Shown piece after piece: positions 7,436 through 16,054 of a stretch of DNA of 41,186 bases. The notes under the pieces are model-generated. The model was not told the DNA's origin. It searched no databases and worked only from the letters and a program-made list of their open reading frames with translations. How positions within the stretch are numbered: the first letter of the stretch is position 1; every line of letters starts with the position of its first letter. Position numbers and translations under genes: made by a program. The DNA comes from a virus, in IMG/VR virus record IMGVR_UViG_3300024921_000002, positions 1 through 41,186 of that record, one strand, 5' to 3'.

Positions 7436-7607
7436 TATTGCGGCTCTCTTTCTCAGAACTAATGATGCGGAATCTCCGCTCATCCAGATCTAGCCCCAGT
7501 GGGGATCGGTCGCCAGTGCAATAAATAAAAGTCTTAGGCATCGACGTCACATTTTCTGGGAGCGGTAGTATGTCTTCAATAATTAGCCGTTGTGATTTTC
7601 CGTCCAT
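7425..7607 (-). CDS. Hypothetical 60-aa protein
   Basis: The ORF fills the gap between the muramidase and methyltransferase genes, and its start abuts the muramidase stop. No motif recognised. Confidence 0.3.
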   Translation of the reverse strand: MDGKSQRLIIEDILPLPENVTSMPKTFIYCTGDRSPLGLDLDERRFRIISSEKESRNNEK

Positions 7608-8161
7608 TACACTATAACCTCTCTGAATGATTCTGCGCGAGCAAACCAGCCATTTTTAAAAGCTGCTTGTGTTGGGTCGGTATTAATGATTTCCTGATAG
7701 TAATGCAGGCGACGGTCGACGATGTTGTTTATAAAATGTTTACCAAGCTCTGTAACAGCACGGGTTGTCGCTGTAATGGTTTTTACGCCGATAATTCCAT
7801 CCGGCGAAGATTGGCTATAAGAGGCCGAAACTAATGCAGTTTGTAAGATTTTTACGGAGCCTCTACGTCCATGATTTACGGCCATGTCGAGCATGATGGG
7901 CTGTATCAGCGTAGGTAAACTGATGATATTGGGCCGGACGTAATACAGGGTATAGTAGATTTTTTCAGCCAGAGCGGGGGTTACGGCTTTTATTTCCGCT
8001 ATGGTGACATCCATTGGTATGTTGGATGATGGTCGTCTAAAATACTCGGCGTAACTCTTGGCGGTGATGCCGTATTGTGTCGGACCGCCTTTATCAGCAG
8101 GGTGGTTAACATAGCCGCCTTCTTTCGCGATGATGGCGGCGATGATTTGTTTTATGGTCAT
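7607..8161 (-). CDS. GH108-family muramidase with C-terminal PG_binding_3-like domain (endolysin candidate)
   Basis: N-terminal IIAKEGGYVNHPADKGGPTQYGIT is the GH108 signature with the catalytic EGGY. The C-terminus carries RRLHYYQEI...FKNGWFARAESF. Confidence 0.8.
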   Translation of the reverse strand: MTIKQIIAAIIAKEGGYVNHPADKGGPTQYGITAKSYAEYFRRPSSNIPMDVTIAEIKAVTPALAEKIYYTLYYVRPNIISLPTLIQPIMLDMAVNHGRRGSVKILQTALVSASYSQSSPDGIIGVKTITATTRAVTELGKHFINNIVDRRLHYYQEIINTDPTQAAFKNGWFARAESFREVIV

Positions 8162-8771: not shown

Positions 8772-9080
8772 TTAGTGCAACACACGGACTTTGCGCCGGA
8801 TGATGCTGCTTAGTTTTTGGTTGGCGCTGACTAAGGCAATTATCCTGGCGGTATTGGTCCCGAATTCATACGCCAGATCATCGCTACACCCATGCCGCAG
8901 CTGTTCAAGGGCGATTCGGATAGCTGTTATGGACTGCGGCATATTAAGTCCCAGTTTTTTGCAGTACACATTAACCTGTTCGGCAAGATCCGCGCGTCGC
9001 CGCTGCTCGTCAGTTTGTTTTGCGCGGTAGGCGCTAATCCGGATTAGGTTTGATTGGTATTGTTCTAAAGGTGTTTGCAT
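8772..9080 (-). CDS. Hypothetical protein
   Basis: Trimmed to MQTPLEQYQ, with GAGGG 8 nt upstream. 102 aa. Confidence 0.5.
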   Translation of the reverse strand: MQTPLEQYQSNLIRISAYRAKQTDEQRRRADLAEQVNVYCKKLGLNMPQSITAIRIALEQLRHGCSDDLAYEFGTNTARIIALVSANQKLSSIIRRKVRVLH

Positions 9081-9237: not shown

Positions 9238-10167
9238 TTAATTGTCCGGCGTATGGGTTTTGACTTCGCCGCCGAACAGCTCAACCAGGCGAGGCAGGAA
9301 GTTGGCCAGTTCCAGCGACATGATCGAAAAATCGACATCGAACCGGTCGGCTTCGGATTCTGTTTCAGTCTCGGCTACTTGATCCTGTATCAGGTCAAGA
9401 AATTTCAGGCGTTTAATGGCCAGCTCGTCATCGATAACAAATGACAGGCGATCGGCCCAGGTTACGGCCAGCTTAAAAACGTGTTTGCCTGAATCCAGAT
9501 GATTTTTAATTTCCGGAAGGCTCAAGTCGTGGCGTTTGCAGCGGATAATGCCGCCTTCTTCTTCCGGTGCGCGTAGTTCGCATTCGTCATCAAGGGTGAT
9601 GTCATCCGGTGCCGGCGCTTCATCATCCAGCCAGCCGGTCATCACGCTAACAGGACGGTTTAAGGTGATCCGGTTAATCGGCGTGGCCGGTAATGAGCCA
9701 AGGCATTTACGCAAGCTGCTGAGCAAATCTTCGGCTTTATTCGCCGAGGCAGCATCAACAACCAGCCAGCCGCCTTTGGGGTCGATGTAGGCGTAAGTCT
9801 TGGTTTGGAAAGTAAACGCCCTGGGCAATAGCTCAAAGATCAGTTCGTCTTTAATGGCGATTCTTTCTTTTTTGCCTAACTTGCGGCCCTGTTGTTGTTC
9901 GGCTTCAAGAATCTTTTCCTGAGTCATTTCATTAACGACCATTGTGGGCAGGACTCTTTCTTCTTTTTGGCCGCACAGCATTAAAAAGCCGTTTGAACTA
10001 TGCACCAGCTGTTCCGATGATTTGCCTAGCGGTGATGTCCAGCCATAGGTGGACAGTTCGTGACTGCCGCAAGGGCTGAAAGCCATTGGCAACAGTTTTT
10101 GTTCAAGGTCTGGATCGACGGCGAAATCGCTGTTAAGTCGATAGATGTTTATATTTTTAAACCACAT
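9238..10167 (-). CDS. rdgC: RdgC-like recombination-associated protein
   Basis: MWFKNINIYRL...MAFSPCGSHE..YGW..P.., ...ERVLP..VV, LLPRAF and KAEDLLSSLRKCLGSLP are collinear with E. coli RdgC (MLWFKNLMVYRL...MAFTPCGSQD...LLPRAF...KKAEDTLALLRKSLGSLP). Confidence 0.85.
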   Translation of the reverse strand: MWFKNINIYRLNSDFAVDPDLEQKLLPMAFSPCGSHELSTYGWTSPLGKSSEQLVHSSNGFLMLCGQKEERVLPTMVVNEMTQEKILEAEQQQGRKLGKKERIAIKDELIFELLPRAFTFQTKTYAYIDPKGGWLVVDAASANKAEDLLSSLRKCLGSLPATPINRITLNRPVSVMTGWLDDEAPAPDDITLDDECELRAPEEEGGIIRCKRHDLSLPEIKNHLDSGKHVFKLAVTWADRLSFVIDDELAIKRLKFLDLIQDQVAETETESEADRFDVDFSIMSLELANFLPRLVELFGGEVKTHTPDN

Positions 10168-10391: not shown

Positions 10392-10628
10392 TTATATTTG
10401 TTGCAGGGTTCTTAATGTTGTCGCTAATTCGGTTTCGGTGACATGGAGTCGGTTTGCCAACGCGGCTTTGTTGTCGCTGTCCAGGTTGTTGCACCAGAGC
10501 AGCACGGATAAGCGGTCTTGGCCTGTTAGAGTCTTTTTGGTATCTTCGATATAGGCCGCATTAAGGCCGCGCTCTTCAAATACGGCTATGATTTGCAGTG
10601 CCAGCCAATCAAGTGTTTTTTTAGCCAT
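10392..10628 (-). CDS. Hypothetical early protein (78 aa)
   Basis: Preceded by leader module L1, with AGGAGCG 5 nt from the ATG. Its 5' 93 nt are duplicated at about 11341..11435. Confidence 0.6.
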   Translation of the reverse strand: MAKKTLDWLALQIIAVFEERGLNAAYIEDTKKTLTGQDRLSVLLWCNNLDSDNKAALANRLHVTETELATTLRTLQQI

Positions 10629-10690
10629 GGTTATCGCTCCTGTTTTTTGTTGTTTTTAATGTCGGGTTACGCTGTGCTAACCTGACCTAC
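10629..10690 (-). repeat. REP-like hairpin + A/C-rich leader + SD module, copy L1
   Basis: In minus sense: GTAGGTCAGGTTAGCACAGCGTAACCCGACATTAAAAACAACAAAAAACAGGAGCGATAAC, followed by ATG. Confidence 0.75.
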
Positions 10691-11032: not shown

Positions 11033-11100
11033 TGGGTTGGTTCCGTTTTTGTTGTTTTTAATGTCGGGTAGGGTGAAGATTTACCCCGGCCTGCTTGGCT
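11033..11100 (-). repeat. Leader module, copy L2 (different hairpin, same A/C-rich spacer)
   Basis: Shares ...CGACATTAAAAACAACAAAAAC... with L1, L3 and L4. The hairpin is CGGGGTAAATCTTCACCCTACCCG. Confidence 0.6.
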
Positions 11101-11274: not shown

Positions 11275-11337
11275 GTTGGTTGCTCCGTGTTTTGTTGTTT
11301 TTAAATGTCGGGGTACGCTGCGCTAACCCGACCTACT
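11275..11337 (-). repeat. REP-like hairpin + leader module, copy L3
   Basis: In minus sense: GTAGGTCGGGTTAGCGCAGCGTACCCCGACATTTAAAAACAACAAAACACGGAGCAACCAAC, followed by ATG. Confidence 0.75.
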
Positions 11338-11435
11338 TGCTTTTGGGTATCTTCGATGTAGGCCGCATTAAGGCCGCGCTCAGCAAATACGGCTATGATT
11401 TGCAGTGCCAGCCAATCAAGTGTTTTTTTAGCCAT
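11301..11435 (-). pseudogene. Truncated paralogue of ORF 10392..10628 (first about 31 codons), reading on into repeat L3
   Basis: MAKKTLDWLALQIIAVFAERGLNAAYIEDT matches the full-length copy MAKKTLDWLALQIIAVFEERGLNAAYIEDT. The frame then runs into the REP-like element (..QKQVGRVSAAYPDI*). Confidence 0.6.
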
Positions 11436-11437
11436 GG

Positions 11438-11497
11438 TTACGCTCCTGTTTTTTATTGTTTTTAATGTCGGGTTACGTTGTCGTTAACTCGACCTAC
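11438..11497 (-). repeat. REP-like hairpin + leader module, copy L4
   Basis: In minus sense: GTAGGTCGAGTTAACGACAACGTAACCCGACATTAAAAACAATAAAAAACAGGAGCGTAAC, followed by ATG. Confidence 0.75.
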
Positions 11498-11518: not shown

Positions 11519-11566
11519 TTAGCAATTTATTGCTAATATGGTTTCATGTCAAGCAATTTATTGCTT
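11519..11566 (-). promoter_or_regulatory. OL-type operators overlapping a leftward early promoter (PL-like)
   Basis: Palindromes TTAGCAATTTATTGCTAA (11519-11536) and AAGCAATTTATTGCTT (11551-11566). On the minus strand, a -35 TTGACA (11552..11547), a 17-nt spacer and a -10 TAAATT (11529..11524). Confidence 0.6.
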
Positions 11567-11584: not shown

Positions 11585-11610
11585 TAAAAAACCCGCTCAG
11601 GGCGGGTTTT
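11585..11610. terminator. Bidirectional intrinsic terminator ending the repressor-side transcript
   Basis: aaaaaACCCGCtcaggGCGGGTtttt. In minus sense the stem is followed by TTTTTTATT. It sits 17 nt after the stop of ORF 11627..12547 and before OL/PL. Confidence 0.65.
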
Positions 11611-11626: not shown

Positions 11627-12547
11627 CTATGGATTAAATAGATCGATCTGACGGTTTGCTGAGCGGTGTTCTATCACTTCAAGTATCGAATACTCTGACT
11701 TCATTCCTTTCATGGTGAGCCATTGTAGGAGCTGAACCTTGGCTTTTAAGATGTCGTTTTTGGCAAAAACTTCTTCGCTTGCATTAACGCGAGCTAAAAA
11801 GTCTTCATCCAGTATTTCAGCATAAAATGTTTGAATACCGTCGGTAAAGCGCCATTTATTTCCATCTGCAAATGACGCATTGATGATTTGCAAGCTGACG
11901 ATCGTCGTTTGGTCGTTTATTTTTTCATCGCCAGGATCGGGGGCGACAAAATAAATTGACTCCCTCTTATCTATCATTAAGAGCGGTTTTCCGGGTGCAT
12001 CAGGATCAACGATTGCGAATGACTCAATACCATCACGCAGCAGGGGCTTGGTTATGATGTTTTCAAATGCTTGTCTTATTTTATGGTTTTGCAGAAGGGC
12101 AAGGGCGGTCTTTTCAATATCATAATGATCATCATCAATATAAACTCTAACGATTCCATTGTCAGCAACTTCTGTTTTAGTGATTTTCCTATTCCGAACC
12201 CAACGCAAAAAACCTATTAATGTGCCGCCAGTATAGTTAGCAAGGCCAATAATACCGGCTGCATTTAAAACAGCCGTTGTATTGCCATGATTAAATATGT
12301 CAATAGCGTCTAAGATTAGGCTTTTAGCGGTAGCAACCATTTCGACGCCAAAGCAACCTGTTTTAAATGATCCCTTTACGCTGACGCCTATTTTAAATTT
12401 ATCGCCATATAGCGAGTTTCCAACCTCTTCCATAAGGCTTCCGATAGCCATTAGAGCGGGTGCAAGGTCATGCACATCCATCTCGTGGTTATCGAGAGCA
12501 GGTCCGTCATAGATTACTTGGAATTTAGCTGGCTTCATGTCAATCAT
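11627..12547 (-). CDS. Hypothetical 306-aa protein, no recognisable domain (cassette gene D)
   Basis: Long clean ORF in an A+T-richer segment. AAGG lies 9 nt upstream and a terminator follows immediately downstream. No catalytic motif recognised. Confidence 0.7.
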   Translation of the reverse strand: MIDMKPAKFQVIYDGPALDNHEMDVHDLAPALMAIGSLMEEVGNSLYGDKFKIGVSVKGSFKTGCFGVEMVATAKSLILDAIDIFNHGNTTAVLNAAGIIGLANYTGGTLIGFLRWVRNRKITKTEVADNGIVRVYIDDDHYDIEKTALALLQNHKIRQAFENIITKPLLRDGIESFAIVDPDAPGKPLLMIDKRESIYFVAPDPGDEKINDQTTIVSLQIINASFADGNKWRFTDGIQTFYAEILDEDFLARVNASEEVFAKNDILKAKVQLLQWLTMKGMKSEYSILEVIEHRSANRQIDLFNP

Positions 12548-12735
12548 TTTAACGCCTTATTTATCGTAATGCACGTTACGCTAAACCAGTTCGTAATCAT
12601 GGAAGTCGGGAAAGCTGCTTATGGCCTACACTCACAGGCCTCAACGTGTCGAGCATTGAAAAATTGTTCCCGATCTATGAATTTACAGTGCAGGTCACTG
12701 CGGTTTTTTATTGTTTTTATTAAAGTTTATTTTAA

Positions 12736-13038
12736 TTACTCAGGTACGCCGGCTCGGCTGCAATCGTCTTTTTTAATCTTTTTCCATTGTATAAAGTTAG
12801 GCTCATCTTTTGCGTTAAGATAGCTTGACGTAATTACGGTAGCCTGTACGCAAATATCCATTGGTGTTCCACTGCGCTTGACTATTTCGTATCGTTCAAG
12901 GGAGTCGCTAATGGCTTTGTAATAGGTATCTTGCAAAGCATCCGCTTGGCTATATCCGGAAATTAAATACAAGCAAGAGGCAATCGCACCAATAATGTTG
13001 GCGTTAGATTGTAATGGGCTTTTTTTCTTTATTGTCAT
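12736..13038 (-). CDS. Small exported / membrane-anchored protein, possible lipoprotein (cassette gene C)
   Basis: 100 aa. The N-terminus MTIKKKSPLQSNANIIGAIAS|CLYLISG has a basic n-region, a hydrophobic stretch and an IASC lipobox-like motif. There are further Cys residues in the mature part. Confidence 0.5.
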   Translation of the reverse strand: MTIKKKSPLQSNANIIGAIASCLYLISGYSQADALQDTYYKAISDSLERYEIVKRSGTPMDICVQATVITSSYLNAKDEPNFIQWKKIKKDDCSRAGVPE

Positions 13039-13064
13039 AATTGATCCTATTTTTGATTGAAGTG

Positions 13065-13700
13065 TTAGTTGGTGATGTTGATAAATTTTGCCCAGGATTC
13101 CTCACATAGTATTGTCACGGGGCTGCCTTGCTCTTGGTAAAGTAAGGCTTTTTCTATTTTTCTGCCGTGGCTGGTGGCTATCCAGTCGCGGCTGGCGAGT
13201 GCGCCGATGACTAGATAATCAAGCTTTTTAGTGACGGATTTGGCCGGTATGCCGCCCAGCTCGGTGATGATTTGTTCGCATTTATCACGGGTTCCGGTGA
13301 TAAATGCGCCGGTTAAGCAAAATGTTGAGCCATTAACAATGAGTTCGTCAGGCTCTTGGTTGCCGAAGCTGGTGCTAAAGCCGCCCGCTGCACCGGTCTC
13401 TTGAAAAGTTCCACCTATAAGTTTAGATAAGGTTTGGTAGAAGTCTTCCCGCTCTTCCTGGGTGATGATGTTGTCGGCCAAGATGTCGTCAATACGTTGT
13501 TTAACAACGTTGAGCGGGAATGATCGAGTATAGGCCTCGTTGTCTTTTAGCCATAGATTGAGGAAGTGAATTTCGTTGTCATTGATAACCTGGTCTGCGG
13601 TAATGCCCATAATGAGGCCATACAGGGTATTGATAGCCTTGATCTCGTTGCTTGCGGCGTGGAAGCCGGGCGGTAGTTGGTTGTTATGGTAACGGTTCAT
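13065..13700 (-). CDS. TerB-like N-terminal domain + C-terminal BRCT domain protein (cassette gene B)
   Basis: Start reset to the ATG at 13700, which forms an ATGA overlap with the upstream stop. The C-terminus GSTFCLTGAFITGTRDKCEQIITELGGIPAKSVTKKLDYLVIGALAS...KIEKA is collinear with the LigA BRCT domain. The N-terminus GITADQVINDNEIHFLNLWL...ITQEEREDF is TerB-like. Confidence 0.6.
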   Translation of the reverse strand: MNRYHNNQLPPGFHAASNEIKAINTLYGLIMGITADQVINDNEIHFLNLWLKDNEAYTRSFPLNVVKQRIDDILADNIITQEEREDFYQTLSKLIGGTFQETGAAGGFSTSFGNQEPDELIVNGSTFCLTGAFITGTRDKCEQIITELGGIPAKSVTKKLDYLVIGALASRDWIATSHGRKIEKALLYQEQGSPVTILCEESWAKFINITN

Positions 13701-14401
13701 TCTATTTGCTCGTCTTTGGTGCTGCTGATTGTTAGCCATGTCCCCATGGTTTCAGTCTGGGTCAGTGTGTATTTAATGCCGTTACGAATGGCGGTTCCAC
13801 CAAGCTGTCCTCTTTTAGAACCAAAGCCGAGTGAGTTTATTACACTCCCTCTATCGGCCTTTGATAGCTTGGGATTCGTTGCAATCACAGCGGAAAGTAT
13901 GCCTTCGAGCACGTTAGCTCCCGACTTCAGAGTTCCGTCTCCCGTTCCTATAAATATGATGTCAGTTACATCGCCGGAAATCTTATTTGCCGTAATTATC
14001 AGTGCGAGGTTATTGGATAGTGCTGCATTCGTTATTTGTTCTTCGCCGTTATCGCTATCATTAACCGTTAGGTTATTTGGATTGATGGTTAGGTTCATTT
14101 CCTTAGCGGCATTTTTATAAGCACTTATAAATTCGGTAGTGGTAAAGCCCATGCCGAGATTTTCTTTCTTAATCGGTTTAGCCGTCTCGGATTTTGGTTG
14201 GGTGGGGCTTCCATCGGTGGTTACGGTATTGTTATCTTTAATGATTCCGACAAGGGAACCTACTGCCGCAATTAATATGAAAACGACTAAACAGCCTGTC
14301 CATGCCTTAACTCCTGGATTTGCCGCGCCGCAATTCGGACAGGTTTTTGCACTTCTATCAACTTGGTGTTTGCAGGATTTGCATTCAACCAGACTACTCA
14401 T
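13697..14401 (-). CDS. Zinc-ribbon / single-TM / extracytoplasmic-domain protein (cassette gene A)
   Basis: MSSLVECKSCKHQVDRSAKTCPNCGAANPG is a CxxC..CxxC ribbon, followed by the TM segment WTGCLVVFILIAAVGSLVGII and then a domain of about 170 aa with no recognisable motif. AAGGGAG is the SD. Confidence 0.65.
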   Translation of the reverse strand: MSSLVECKSCKHQVDRSAKTCPNCGAANPGVKAWTGCLVVFILIAAVGSLVGIIKDNNTVTTDGSPTQPKSETAKPIKKENLGMGFTTTEFISAYKNAAKEMNLTINPNNLTVNDSDNGEEQITNAALSNNLALIITANKISGDVTDIIFIGTGDGTLKSGANVLEGILSAVIATNPKLSKADRGSVINSLGFGSKRGQLGGTAIRNGIKYTLTQTETMGTWLTISSTKDEQIE

Positions 14402-14502
14402 ATCTTTATGCTCCCTTTTTTTATGGTTTGTATATAGGCAATTGCTTACGCCGTAGCTGATGCGACAAAAGCAAAGCAGCTACGGTTTATTTATCGTAAT
14501 AG

Positions 14503-14898
14503 TTATGTAGATCCGTTAACGACTTTATTTATATATTCCTCACCTTGATAGTGAGCGCGTGTCTCAGAGACAACCATTGTCGCGTGTTTGCCGCTATTGT
14601 CGCTGTGTAAATAATTTTCTACCAGTTTTTCGATGCGATTGCTGAGCAATTCTTCAATTGGTTGGTTAGGGATCATCAAGTGAAATGCTTGCAAGCCAAA
14701 GTGCTCGGCTAGTTTATCGATGGTATCTGAGCGGATACTTTCCACATTTTCTTCATCAAATAAATAGCTGACGGTGCGTTGTGATAATCCAACCAGTTTT
14801 CCGAACTCAGCTTGGCTCATTTTGCGGCCGGTTTCCCTGGCTCTATGGTCTAGTAAAGTTTTGACGTTCCCTGCAACTATTTTCTTAGTATTAATCAT
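14503..14898 (-). CDS. CI-like repressor (XRE-family HTH, no S24 peptidase domain)
   Basis: Trimmed to MINTKKIVAGNVKTLLDHR...MSQAEFGKLVGLSQRTVSYLF (131 aa). It is divergent from a Cro-like gene across a tripartite operator. Confidence 0.8.
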   Translation of the reverse strand: MINTKKIVAGNVKTLLDHRARETGRKMSQAEFGKLVGLSQRTVSYLFDEENVESIRSDTIDKLAEHFGLQAFHLMIPNQPIEELLSNRIEKLVENYLHSDNSGKHATMVVSETRAHYQGEEYINKVVNGST

Positions 14899-14921: not shown

Positions 14922-14983
14922 CTAGCAATGGTTTATTTTTAATTAAGCAATTCTTTGCTTGTTTAACTAGCAATAAATTGCTA
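14922..14983. promoter_or_regulatory. OR-type tripartite operator / divergent promoter region
   Basis: TAGCAATGGTTTATTT (14922-14937, imperfect), AAGCAATTCTTTGCTT (14945-14960) and TAGCAATAAATTGCTA (14968-14983). Start-to-start spacing is 23 bp, and the half-site is the same AGCAAT seen at OL. Confidence 0.7.
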
Positions 14984-15658: not shown

Positions 15659-16054
15659 ATGACTATTAAGGCGAAAATGGTTAATCAAGGGCGATTTACG
15701 AAGCGCGAGGCCGAGGTGGCAACGCTGATGGCTGAGGGTCATGCGGATAAGGTTATCGCGCGTTTACTGGCGGTCAGTATTCGCACGGTTAATGCGCATG
15801 TCGGCAATATCTATGAGAAGTTGGCGTTGCATTCTGAATCTATTGGAGTTAGTACGGCGGCCATTAATAGCCGGTGTTATGCGGTGGCGGTGATGATTGC
15901 GCGGGGCATGATCAGTGTGTCGATTAAGTCGATTGTGATGGTGCTGATTTTTAACGCGACGCTGGTTGATGATGACAGTGCGGTGCGGGTGCGTAACGGC
16001 CGGGGTAGGGCGCATGCGCATGTGTCTCGGATGCGCAGGGTTGGCGATGCTTAA
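15659..16054 (+). CDS. LuxR/GerE-family HTH transcriptional regulator
   Basis: FTKREAEVATLMAEGHADKVIARLLAVSIRTVNAHVGNIYEKL is a canonical GerE-type HTH. AAGGG is the SD. Confidence 0.75.
   Translation: MTIKAKMVNQGRFTKREAEVATLMAEGHADKVIARLLAVSIRTVNAHVGNIYEKLALHSESIGVSTAAINSRCYAVAVMIARGMISVSIKSIVMVLIFNATLVDDDSAVRVRNGRGRAHAHVSRMRRVGDA

What the first reader, a model, noticed from the sequence alone, without database searches (positions are those of the whole stretch)
11627..14401. Four-gene A+T-richer cassette in the rexAB-equivalent slot (between the repressor gene and OL/PL): candidate lysogen-expressed defence or exclusion system
**Gene order.** Reading the minus strand, the order is:
1. CI-like repressor (14898->14503).
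2. Gene A: zinc-ribbon/TM/periplasmic protein.
3. Gene B: TerB-like + BRCT protein.
4. Gene C: small exported protein or lipoprotein.
5. Gene D: 306-aa orphan.
6. A strong terminator (11610->11585).
7. OL/PL (11566->11519).

**Why it matters.** This is the topology of lambda PRM-cI-rexA-rexB-terminator followed by OL/PL-N. It is the classic place for prophage genes that are expressed in the lysogen and exclude other phages. The segment is visibly A+T-richer than the rest of the genome. None of the four proteins matches a defence system I can name. Shango also uses a TerB-type module, but with ATPase and helicase partners that are absent here.
Basis: partly seen in the sequence, partly recalled or inferred. 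Interest (0 to 1): 0.85.

Follow-up and report, generated by a model that had tools for sequence, protein, structure and literature searches.

The report
Prophage immunity-operon array of accessory genes
Four extra genes sit behind the repressor gene of a Methylobacter prophage, but they are separately mobile add-on genes rather than one defence machine; two belong to families already suspected of blocking other phages, and no family's mechanism is known.

Summary
On the minus strand the order is OR, cI, A, B, C, D, a strong terminator, then OL/PL. This lies in a lambda-organised prophage of Methylobacter tundripaludum SV96.

The reading as one four-gene system is not supported. In about 240 loci fetched around relatives of B or D, the full set occurs only in this prophage. 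Close relatives carry cI-B-D, A-B, cI-A'-B-C' or cI-B-X, with DNA homology breaking at gene borders.

- **B** is the constant element. It is 42% identical to Orf2 of Vibrio phage K139, a gene credited with superinfection immunity. It has one helical module plus a BRCT domain of the RFC1/LigA type. Its relatives usually follow a repressor gene, and the gene after them is enriched for exported or membrane proteins.
- **D** is not an orphan. It matches PADLOC candidate PDC-S42, which is untested, and NCBIfam LAPAL_fam over its full length. It recurs alone directly after cI in Pseudomonas prophages, in Mu-like prophages, in Gram-positive lysogeny modules and beside a type III restriction-modification system.
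- **A** is a zinc-ribbon membrane protein.
- **C** is a small exported protein with two conserved cysteines, from a large unnamed family.

Anti-phage function is inferred, not shown.

The parts
14946..14982 (.). OR region. One perfect operator palindrome AGCAATAAATTGCT (14969-14982) and one degenerate copy (14946-14959), lying between cI and the divergent cro-like gene.
   Evidence: Pattern search; sequence read.
14503..14898 (-). cI-like repressor, 131 aa. It has an HTH only and no S24 peptidase domain.
   Evidence: Pfam HTH_3 scores 25.5 bits against a cutoff of 23. PHROG transcription-regulator families also match.
14452..14485 (-). Hairpin with a 9-bp stem in the cI-A spacer, with no U-tract. 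It is partly conserved in the related phage L262.
   Evidence: Fold (z = -1.29, not significant on its own). 86% DNA identity over 14435-14484 in L262.
13697..14401 (-). Gene A, a bitopic membrane protein. N-terminal CxxC...CxxC zinc ribbon (cytoplasmic side inferred from the basic residues), one transmembrane helix at about residues 36-54, and a roughly 180-aa extracytoplasmic domain.
   Evidence: Zn_ribbon_3 scores 24.4 bits, below the cutoff of 27. Kyte-Doolittle 19-residue hydropathy (KD19) is 2.79. phrog_14275 matches the N-terminal half and phrog_26814 the C-terminal half. There are only 5 homologues. In L262 the N-terminal module is joined to a different outer domain.
13065..13700 (-). 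Gene B, short form of the K139 Orf2 family. One four-helix module (residues 15-94), a disordered linker, then a BRCT domain (126-209). Its start overlaps the stop of A as ATGA.
   Evidence: 42% identity to K139 Orf2, E = 4e-49. phrog_3989 E = 6e-63. BRCT 25.7 bits against a cutoff of 21.3. Structure model pLDDT 81.6. Foldseek best matches are the RFC1 and LigA BRCT domains. ATGA overlap read.
12736..13038 (-). Gene C, a small exported protein. N-terminal signal or anchor sequence, then a roughly 65-aa helical domain with invariant C62, W84 and C92.
   Evidence: 793 representatives at E <= 1e-3. Alignment A7. No Pfam, PHROG, PADLOC or NCBIfam family. No similarity to K139 Glo.
12557..12570 (-). 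14-nt direct repeat ATTACGATAAATAA just upstream of the D start. A second copy lies at 14487-14500, just after the cI stop. It may be a scar of a module junction.
   Evidence: Homology with L083 resumes at 12560.
11627..12547 (-). Gene D, 306 aa, family PDC-S42 / LAPAL. An N-terminal alpha/beta part carrying the LAPAL motif, a conserved glycine-rich hydrophobic segment at about residues 85-116, and a C-terminal OB-like beta-barrel.
   Evidence: PADLOC PDC-S42 E = 2.9e-90, profile positions 1-298 of 302. NCBIfam NF053583 scores 267 bits against a cutoff of 60. phrog_3243. Model pLDDT 81.9. Weak OB-fold matches at E >= 2e-3. Hydropathy.
11585..11610 (-). Intrinsic terminator that closes the cassette.
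   Evidence: dG = -13.6 kcal/mol, z = -3.95, 0 of 200 shuffles as stable.
11519..11566 (-). OL/PL. Promoter TTGACA, 17 nt, TAAATT, with two operator palindromes AGCAATTTATTGCT (plus-strand reading) at 11521-11534 and 11552-11565.

Best explanation
The segment is a mosaic array of independently acquired accessory genes ('morons') appended to the repressor gene. It is probably transcribed from the cI promoter in the lysogen and closed by one terminator. It is not a single multi-protein system.

- **B is the conserved anchor.** It belongs to the Orf2 family of Vibrio phage K139, whose members follow repressor genes in P2-like, D3-like and these Methylococcales phages. K139 Orf2 has been credited with superinfection immunity. 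My inference is that B acts in the cytoplasm on incoming DNA through a BRCT domain of the 5'-phosphate/DNA-end-binding RFC1/LigA type. One possibility is that it competes with ligase at cohesive ends or nicks.
- **A and C are envelope proteins.** They occupy a position that, across the B family, is strongly enriched for non-homologous exported or membrane proteins, as Glo is in K139. I infer that they are superinfection-exclusion-type factors acting at DNA entry.
- **D is a self-contained single-gene defence candidate** (PADLOC PDC-S42). It moves on its own between prophage lysogeny modules and defence islands. I infer an abortive-infection-like sensor-effector, with an OB-like barrel as the sensor and a conserved glycine-rich hydrophobic segment as a possible membrane effector.

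Shown here: gene anatomy, family membership, genomic independence and the recurrence of the slot. Inferred: expression in the lysogen, anti-phage activity and all mechanisms.
For: **Independence of the genes**
- None of 79 other D loci has A, B or C within +/-10 kb.
- Of 80 IMG/VR B loci, 79 have no C or D, and the exception is this prophage's own copy. None of 80 metagenome B loci has C or D. A is absent from all of these except the same copy and two weak N-terminal matches (L119, L220).
- Close relatives, found by separate look-ups, show these orders: cI-B-D (L083), A'-B then the early-left genes (L171), cI-B-200aa (L173), cI-A-like-B-C' (L262), and C then unrelated genes (L263).
- DNA homology breaks at gene borders.

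**B**
- 42% identity to K139 Orf2, which lies in the order cI-orf2-glo-int on the mapped lysogenic transcript.
- A review attributes superinfection immunity to Orf2, citing Nesper 1999 (PMC7997343).
- Upstream neighbours of B relatives are often repressors. Of 48 unique neighbours, 12 match Phage_CI_repr, 6 HTH_3, 6 Peptidase_S24 and 2 Arc. Phage phi1 shows repressor then BRCT protein.
- The BRCT domain matches RFC1, LigA and Rad4, with the TG...R motif aligned.

**Envelope enrichment after B**
- 26 of 65 unique downstream proteins have an N-terminal hydrophobic segment, against 140 of 1793 background ORFs (odds ratio 7.9, p = 4e-12).
- By family the figures are 14 of 40 against 100 of 1051 (p = 2e-5).
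- Downstream neighbours also include Abi_alpha, PDC-S47 and PDC-S48.

**D**
- Full-length PDC-S42 match.
- Directly after cI in two different Pseudomonas savastanoi prophages.
- In the Listeria phage vB_LmoS_188 lysogeny module and next to int in Lactobacillus phage A2.
- Beside a type III restriction-modification system and a Schlafen-like ATPase.

**Operon architecture**
- The spacers lack hairpin-plus-U-tract terminators. There is one strong terminator after D.
Against: - No expression data exist for this lysogen, and no functional test exists for any of the four genes.
- PDC-S42 is one of 145 explicitly untested candidates. NCBIfam names the same family a 'putative phage structural protein'.
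- The primary K139 paper could not be read here. The Orf2 phenotype is cited second-hand and from memory.
- A and B are translationally coupled (ATGA). The same 4-nt overlap occurs in L262. Together with the envelope enrichment next to B, this could mean B works with its neighbours rather than alone.
- The structure-based hints for D are weak: OB-fold matches at E >= 2e-3, and hydropathy borderline for a transmembrane segment.
- The 188-nt C-D spacer could hide a promoter that the simple scan missed.
Confidence: 0.6

Rival explanations
1. B works together with the adjacent envelope protein or proteins as a two- or three-part exclusion system of the Orf2-Glo type. A and/or C act at the membrane and B acts on the DNA just inside. 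D is a separate single-gene module.
For: - The ATGA overlap between A and B, and the same 4-nt overlap in L262.
- A-like, B and C occur together in two phages: this window and L262.
- K139 has orf2 immediately followed by the periplasmic exclusion gene glo.
- Exported or membrane proteins are enriched five- to eight-fold directly after B-family genes.
Against: - The envelope partners are not homologous to each other, which is unusual for an obligate partner.
- Many B genes are followed directly by an integrase or by soluble proteins.
- L083 and L173 carry B without A or C.
- From my recollection of Nesper 1999, not checked here, Glo and Orf2 were assigned separable effects.
Confidence: 0.2
2. 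All four genes form one new lysogen-expressed defence system.
For: The genes are contiguous, on the same strand and tightly spaced, and they share one terminator in the rexAB-like slot.
Against: - The four-gene combination was found only in this prophage, among about 240 loci fetched around relatives of B or D.
- Close relatives keep subsets of the genes, with junctions at gene borders.
- D occurs alone in many unrelated contexts.
Confidence: 0.05
3. The genes are not anti-phage. B would be a lysogeny or induction accessory of the repressor, for example coupling DNA-end or nick sensing to the genetic switch. A and C would be lysogenic-conversion envelope proteins serving host physiology. D would be a phage structural or morphogenesis protein, as its NCBIfam name suggests.
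For: - B is linked to repressor genes across different phage lineages.
- The BRCT domain is of the DNA-damage and DNA-end type.
- NCBIfam gives the name LAPAL 'putative phage structural protein'.
- In some Mu-like prophages D lies between the virion-morphogenesis gene and the head protease gene. Phage_tail_S is the upstream neighbour in 4 of 71 cases.
Against: - K139 Orf2 is credited with superinfection immunity.
- Here D is on the opposite strand from the structural genes, inside the repressor operon. It also occurs in a non-phage defence island and directly after cI.
- B occurs with both S24-cleavable repressors and HTH-only repressors, so it shows no clear link to the mode of induction.
Confidence: 0.15

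Closest known systems
K139 cI-orf2-glo-int lysogenic operon of Vibrio cholerae phage K139 (Nesper et al. 1999, J Bacteriol 181:2902)
   Same: - B is a true homologue of Orf2: 42% identity over 202 aa, with the same helical module plus BRCT architecture.
- Both lie downstream of the repressor on the lysogenic strand.
- Both are followed immediately by a small exported protein: Glo in K139, C here.
   Different: - Orf2 has two helical modules and B has one.
- C and Glo share no detectable sequence similarity.
- Here gene A lies between cI and B.
- The operon ends in a terminator in front of OL/PL, not in int.
- The phage is lambda-organised, not P2-like.
PADLOC phage defence candidate PDC-S42, which is the same family as NCBIfam NF053583 LAPAL_fam and phrog_3243
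   Same: - D matches all three models end to end.
- It behaves as a single gene, as the 'S' label implies.
   Different: - The PDC set was defined from genes embedded in BREX, DISARM or type I restriction-modification systems, and it is untested.
- Here D is prophage-borne in the immunity operon. I also found this context in Pseudomonas, Listeria and Lactobacillus phages.
Lambda rexA-rexB (PRM-cI-rexA-rexB-terminator, next to OL/PL)
   Same: The topology matches: accessory genes between the repressor gene and a terminator abutting OL/PL, presumably co-transcribed with cI.
   Different: - No RexA or RexB hit appeared in the PADLOC scan.
- There are four unrelated genes, not a sensor plus ion-channel pair.
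- The components are independently mobile.
Shango (TerB-domain protein plus ATPase plus helicase)
   Different: - No ATPase or helicase partner, and no Shango model hit.
- TerB itself is not detected above threshold.
BRCT domains of RFC1 (p140) and NAD-dependent ligase LigA
   Same: - These are the best sequence-profile and fold matches for residues 120-210 of B.
- The invariant T130-G131...R138 aligns with 'ITGVLESIER' of RFC1.
- From memory, these residues form the 5'-phosphate pocket of RFC1.
   Different: - B has no ligase or clamp-loader catalytic domain.
- It carries a family-specific invariant insert, SRDWxxxSHGRKIEKA.

Membership tests
PADLOC PDC-S42 (single-gene phage defence candidate) | Full-length match to the PDC-S42 HMM | tested here: met
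   E = 2.9e-90, 300.8 bits, residues 4-303 against profile positions 1-298 of 302. The L083 orthologue also matches at 2.2e-92.
PADLOC PDC-S42 (single-gene phage defence candidate) | Acts as a stand-alone gene with no conserved partner | tested here: met
   No A, B or C homologue within 10 kb in 79 other loci. Upstream neighbours are heterogeneous.
PADLOC PDC-S42 (single-gene phage defence candidate) | Demonstrated anti-phage activity | not testable with these tools
   The source paper lists the 145 PDCs as untested.
NCBIfam NF053583 LAPAL_fam | Score above the curated cutoff, and the LAPAL motif present | tested here: met
   267.4 bits against a cutoff of 60. L27, P29 and A30 are invariant and A28 and L31 nearly invariant in alignment A1. 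The sequence reads DLAPALMAIG.
K139 Orf2 family (phrog_3989) | Sequence homology to K139 Orf2 across the helical module and the BRCT domain | tested here: met
   BLASTP E = 4e-49, 42% identity. phrog_3989 E = 5.8e-63.
K139 Orf2 family (phrog_3989) | Two tandem helical modules before the BRCT domain, as in Orf2 itself | tested here: not met
   B aligns to PHROG profile positions 84-292 of 296 and lacks the first module. About 211-aa and about 296-aa size classes coexist in the family. B is a short-form variant.
K139 Orf2 family (phrog_3989) | Position immediately downstream of the repressor on the lysogenic strand | tested here: inconclusive
   Same operon and strand, but gene A intervenes here. 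B follows the repressor directly in L083, L173, K139 and phi1.
K139 Orf2 family (phrog_3989) | Prevents superinfection | not testable with these tools
   Known only from K139, through a second-hand citation (PMC7997343).
BRCT domain (PF00533) | Pfam score above the gathering threshold, and a BRCT fold | tested here: met
   25.7 bits against 21.3. Foldseek matches RFC1, LigA and Rad4 BRCT domains with probability 1.00.
TerB (PF05099) | Match to the TerB model or to TerB structures | tested here: inconclusive
   No hit for the N-terminal module of B. K139 Orf2 gives E = 0.075 and 13.8 bits against a cutoff of 24.4. A profile of the module finds no TerB chain in the PDB. A domain-level fold search could not be run.
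Shango | TerB protein together with ATPase and helicase partners | tested here: not met
   No such domains or PADLOC hits in the cassette.
Lambda RexAB | Homology to RexA and RexB | tested here: not met
   The PADLOC scan of A-D and cI returned no Rex hit. I assumed, but did not check, that the library holds RexAB models. Only the slot is analogous.
K139 Glo | Sequence similarity of C to Glo | tested here: not met
   No local alignment at E <= 100. The two are alike only in being small exported proteins that follow an Orf2-type gene.

The most novel reading that the evidence does not exclude
Orf2-type proteins would be a widespread, overlooked second immunity factor of temperate phages. They combine one or two metal-binding-like helical modules with a 5'-phosphate/DNA-end-binding BRCT domain, and their genes are coupled to the repressor gene. 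They would recognise the ends or nicks of incoming phage DNA, acting as a LigA/RFC1-BRCT mimic. They would cooperate with a rapidly exchanged envelope partner encoded next to them (Glo, C, or A-like zinc-ribbon membrane proteins) to stop superinfecting genomes at or just after entry.
Probability: 0.15. Interest if true: 0.75.

Novelty: new member of a known kind. Interest (0 to 1): 0.5.

Why it matters
- The finding links a methanotroph prophage to the 25-year-old, mechanistically unsolved K139 Orf2/Glo immunity region.
- It shows that the Orf2 family is large. I found 253 protein clusters, 189 IMG/VR relatives and 278 metagenome relatives. The family is tied to repressor genes in several phage lineages and is flanked by a hot spot for envelope proteins and defence candidates.
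- It gives the untested PADLOC candidate PDC-S42 an independent line of support: it recurs in the post-cI slot and in the lysogeny modules of unrelated prophages.
- Both families are compact, single-gene targets for cloning.
- A BRCT domain acting in phage-phage conflict would be a new use of that fold in bacteria.

Tried and rejected
- **Near-identical DNA in GenBank phages:** none.
- **Literature searches** for PDC-S42, PDC-S48, 'LAPAL motif', and 'BRCT domain' with superinfection: nothing relevant.
- **Nesper 1999** could not be fetched by PubMed id or PMC id.
- **Single-protein scans of IMG/VR** with A, B and C returned only this prophage itself. An alignment of C relatives was too variable for a locus scan.
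- **D against solved structures by sequence profile:** no hit. The fold searches gave only weak OB-fold matches and uncharacterised viral proteins, so no enzymatic activity can be proposed.
- **A weak JetB/MukE-like PADLOC hit of D** (E = 0.0077) was disregarded as noise.
- **TerB assignment for B** was tested with Pfam on isolated modules and with a module profile against the PDB, without success.
- **The weak PDC-S48 hit of B** (E = 4e-5, residues 79-178) covers only part of the helical module, the linker and the first half of the BRCT domain, and does not establish membership.
- **C as a Glo homologue:** rejected.
- **A as the missing N-terminal module of Orf2:** rejected.
- **Internal intrinsic terminators in the cI-A and C-D spacers:** not found.


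Full report
**Where the window comes from.** Gene D is identical to a protein of Methylobacter tundripaludum, and the locus maps to scaffold 1 of strain SV96 at about 0.98-1.00 Mb. The same region is listed as a 36.7-kb prophage in IMG/VR. The Pfam map of the window fits a lambda-organised temperate phage:
- integrase at 307-1554
- a minus-strand left arm with a C5 methylase, a GH108 lysozyme, RdgC and several small genes
- the region under study
- a divergent cro-like gene and a GerE-type regulator
- a primase-helicase
- a lambda-type large terminase, a portal and a ClpP-capsid fusion

**Checking the observation.**
- The repressor at 14503-14898 has an HTH_3 domain above threshold.
- Downstream of D there is a clean intrinsic terminator (AAAACCCGC-CCUGA-GCGGGUUUUUU, -13.6 kcal/mol, z = -3.95).
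- Next comes a near-consensus promoter (TTGACA, 17 nt, TAAATT) whose two hexamers are each overlapped by the palindrome AGCAATnnATTGCT.
- That palindrome occurs perfectly only three times in 41 kb: twice at PL and once between cI and cro, where a degenerate fourth copy sits beside it. These are therefore the operators, and they bracket the cassette.
- Neither the 101-nt cI-A spacer nor the 188-nt C-D spacer contains a hairpin followed by a U-tract.
- A and B overlap as ATGA, and C starts 26 nt after B behind an AGGA. Co-transcription with cI is therefore plausible but unproven.
- The base composition claim is only partly right. The cassette is 43.2% G+C against 49.5% for the window (6th percentile). 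The low-G+C zone spans about 10.1-15 kb, and B itself is 48%.

**Gene B.**
- *Sequence and fold.* Pfam finds a BRCT domain above threshold, and phrog_3989 matches at 6e-63. A search of GenBank phages showed that B is 42% identical (E = 4e-49) to Orf2 of Vibrio cholerae phage K139.
- *The K139 locus.* The K139 records annotate the order PL, cI, orf2, glo, int, with a mapped lysogenic transcription start. They annotate Glo as a periplasmic exclusion protein. A review cites Nesper et al. 1999 for superinfection immunity by Orf2 (PMC7997343). Another paper cites the same work for Glo as a soluble periplasmic exclusion protein (PMC3952083). I could not obtain the primary paper. My recollection of its abstract, that Orf2 'is involved in preventing superinfection', agrees with these citations.
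- *Size classes.* Orf2 has two copies of a roughly 90-residue helical module before the BRCT domain. B has one. The family holds both classes, about 211 aa and about 296 aa.
- *Structure model.* The AlphaFold model (pLDDT 81.6) shows four helices, a disordered linker and a BRCT fold. The best structural and profile matches are the BRCT domains of RFC1, LigA and Rad4/TopBP1.
- *Conserved pocket.* The family-invariant T130-G131...R138 aligns with 'ITGVLESIER' of RFC1. From memory, those residues form the 5'-phosphate-binding pocket of RFC1.
- *The 'TerB-like' label.* It could not be substantiated. The only hit is sub-threshold, for Orf2 itself (E = 0.075), and a profile of the module finds no TerB structure.

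**Gene D.**
- *Family.* It is not an orphan. It matches PADLOC PDC-S42 end to end (E = 2.9e-90), NCBIfam NF053583 'LAPAL motif-containing putative phage structural protein' (267 bits against a cutoff of 60) and phrog_3243. It has 309 relatives across GTDB species, from Proteobacteria to Desulfobacterota, Melainabacteria and CPR bacteria.
- *Status of PDC-S42.* The PDC set comprises 145 explicitly untested candidates. They were chosen because a family member lies embedded in a BREX, DISARM or type I restriction-modification system (bioRxiv 10.1101/2024.01.29.577857).
- *Contexts I sampled:*
  - directly after an S24-type cI and opposite cro, in two different Pseudomonas savastanoi prophages
  - in the repressor-to-integrase lysogeny module of Listeria phage vB_LmoS_188
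  - between the endolysin gene and int in Lactobacillus phage A2
  - near the integrase of a Vibrio tectivirus-like element
  - in Mu-like prophages at two different positions
  - beside a type III restriction-modification system and a Schlafen-like ATPase
- *The 'structural' name.* It probably comes from the Mu-like cases. It does not fit the other contexts, or this window, where D lies on the opposite strand from the structural genes inside the repressor operon.
- *Structure model.* The model (pLDDT 81.9) has an N-terminal alpha/beta part, a conserved glycine-rich hydrophobic stretch at about residues 85-116 (Kyte-Doolittle 19-residue hydropathy, KD19, of 1.3-2.0 across the family) and a C-terminal barrel. 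The barrel's best, weak matches are OB folds of single-strand-binding proteins. No catalytic domain was detected.

**Genes A and C.**
- *A* has a CxxC...CxxC zinc ribbon (just under the Pfam cutoff), one strong transmembrane helix (KD19 2.79) and a roughly 180-residue outer domain. It has very few relatives. In phage L262 the same N-terminal ribbon-plus-helix (52% identity) carries a different outer domain.
- *C* has a signal-like N-terminus. It belongs to a large unnamed family, with 793 representatives at E <= 1e-3. The family is built on a roughly 65-residue domain with invariant C62, W84 and C92, and different members carry cleavable, lipobox-like or transmembrane-anchor N-termini. C has no similarity to Glo and no match in GenBank phages.

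**Do the four genes belong together?** They do not.
- In 79 other D loci, no A, B or C homologue lies within 10 kb.
- In 80 IMG/VR and 80 metagenome loci with B relatives, C and D are absent apart from this prophage's own IMG/VR copy. Apart from that copy, A appears only as two weak N-terminal matches.
- Closely related Methylococcales phages, found by separate look-ups, carry different subsets:
  - cI-B-D (L083)
  - A'-B followed directly by early-left genes (L171)
  - cI-B-200aa (L173)
  - cI-A-like-B-C' (L262)
  - C followed by unrelated genes (L263)
- DNA homology starts and stops at gene borders.
- A 14-nt repeat, ATTACGATAAATAA, lies just after the cI stop and again just before the D start. 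This is consistent with a module junction.

So B is the constant anchor, and A, C and D are exchangeable additions.

**A generalisation about the B family.**
- Its upstream same-strand neighbour is often a repressor. Of 48 unique neighbours, 12 match Phage_CI_repr, 6 HTH_3, 6 Peptidase_S24 and 2 Arc. Examples are K139, Pseudomonas phage phi1 and L173.
- Its downstream neighbour is highly variable and includes integrases, Abi_alpha/PDC-S47, PDC-S48, PDC-S42 and a DEDDh exonuclease.
- That downstream neighbour is strongly enriched for proteins with an N-terminal hydrophobic segment: 26 of 65 unique proteins against 140 of 1793 background ORFs from the same loci (odds ratio 7.9, p = 4e-12). By sequence family the figures are 14 of 40 against 100 of 1051 (p = 2e-5).
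- Glo and C both score below the threshold used, so the count is conservative. The ORF calling was crude and relatedness among loci was only partly removed, so I treat the result as suggestive.
- It can mean one of two things. The position after B may be a landing site for exclusion-type envelope genes. Alternatively, B may cooperate with whatever envelope protein sits beside it.

**Mechanism and verdict.**
- *Best supported:* this is an immunity-operon array of separate accessory genes. It combines a K139-Orf2-type cytoplasmic factor (B), two envelope proteins of exclusion type (A, C) and the single-gene candidate PDC-S42 (D).
- *Shown here:* the anatomy, the family memberships, the lack of co-occurrence and the recurrence of the slot.
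- *Inferred:* expression in the lysogen, anti-phage activity, DNA-end binding by B, and a sensor-effector role for D.
- *Main rival (about 0.2):* B forms a functional pair or trio with its envelope neighbours.
- *One four-part system:* about 0.05.
- *Non-defence reading:* about 0.15.
- *Classification:* a new member (for B, a short-form variant) of known but mechanistically unsolved kinds, of moderate interest.

Noticed in passing
window 10645-10667, 11047-11069, 11451-11473 (minus strand), plus a diverged copy near 11300-11335: A repeated element precedes each of four small early-left genes just downstream of PL. It is a G+C-rich hairpin (for example GGTCGGGTTAGCGCAGCGTAACCCGAC) followed by ATTAAAAACAACAAAA and then the ribosome-binding site. 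The 23-nt core occurs 3 times, against 0 expected by chance. It could be a nut-like antitermination site, an RNA-processing site or a translation-initiation cassette.
   Followed up: partly
window 11301-11435 (-) versus 10392-10628 (-): The 44-aa ORF right after PL repeats the first 30 or so codons of the 78-aa gene (phrog_4060) about 800 nt further on, and then diverges. It looks like a partial duplication left by insertion of two small genes between the copies.
   Followed up: no
window 12557-12570 and 14487-14500 (minus strand): An exact 14-nt direct repeat, ATTACGATAAATAA, lies immediately after the cI stop and immediately before the D start. It may be a scar of an ancestral cI-D junction, the arrangement seen in Pseudomonas savastanoi prophages, into which A-B-C was inserted.
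   Followed up: partly
L083 about 8940-8971 and 9822-9912 (related prophage, JGI 3300078825): In this relative the terminator matches the window twice, and the second copy carries the OL/PL block. The two copies flank an inserted 160-aa gene and a YoeB-type toxin gene. This suggests another accessory gene was inserted by duplication of the boundary.
   Followed up: no
window 7607-8161 (-): A GH108 lysozyme with a peptidoglycan-binding domain lies in the minus-strand left arm, far from the plus-strand structural genes. The relative L083 has the same gene in the same arm.
   Followed up: no
window 15659-16054 (+); also L083 5606-5998 and L173 5795-6160: A GerE/LuxR-type regulator is conserved just beyond cro in this phage group. 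It is a possible CII-like or late-gene activator.
   Followed up: no
L083 2321-4813: The DEAD/ResIII helicase of the related prophage carries intein or homing-endonuclease domains (Hom_end_hint, LAGLIDADG).
   Followed up: no
window 12736-13038 (-), gene C family (alignment A7): The roughly 65-aa domain with two conserved cysteines defines a large family that no Pfam, NCBIfam or PHROG model covers (793 representatives at 50% clustering). It occurs as small exported proteins and as a C-terminal or tandem domain of longer proteins. I could not survey its general genomic context.
   Followed up: partly
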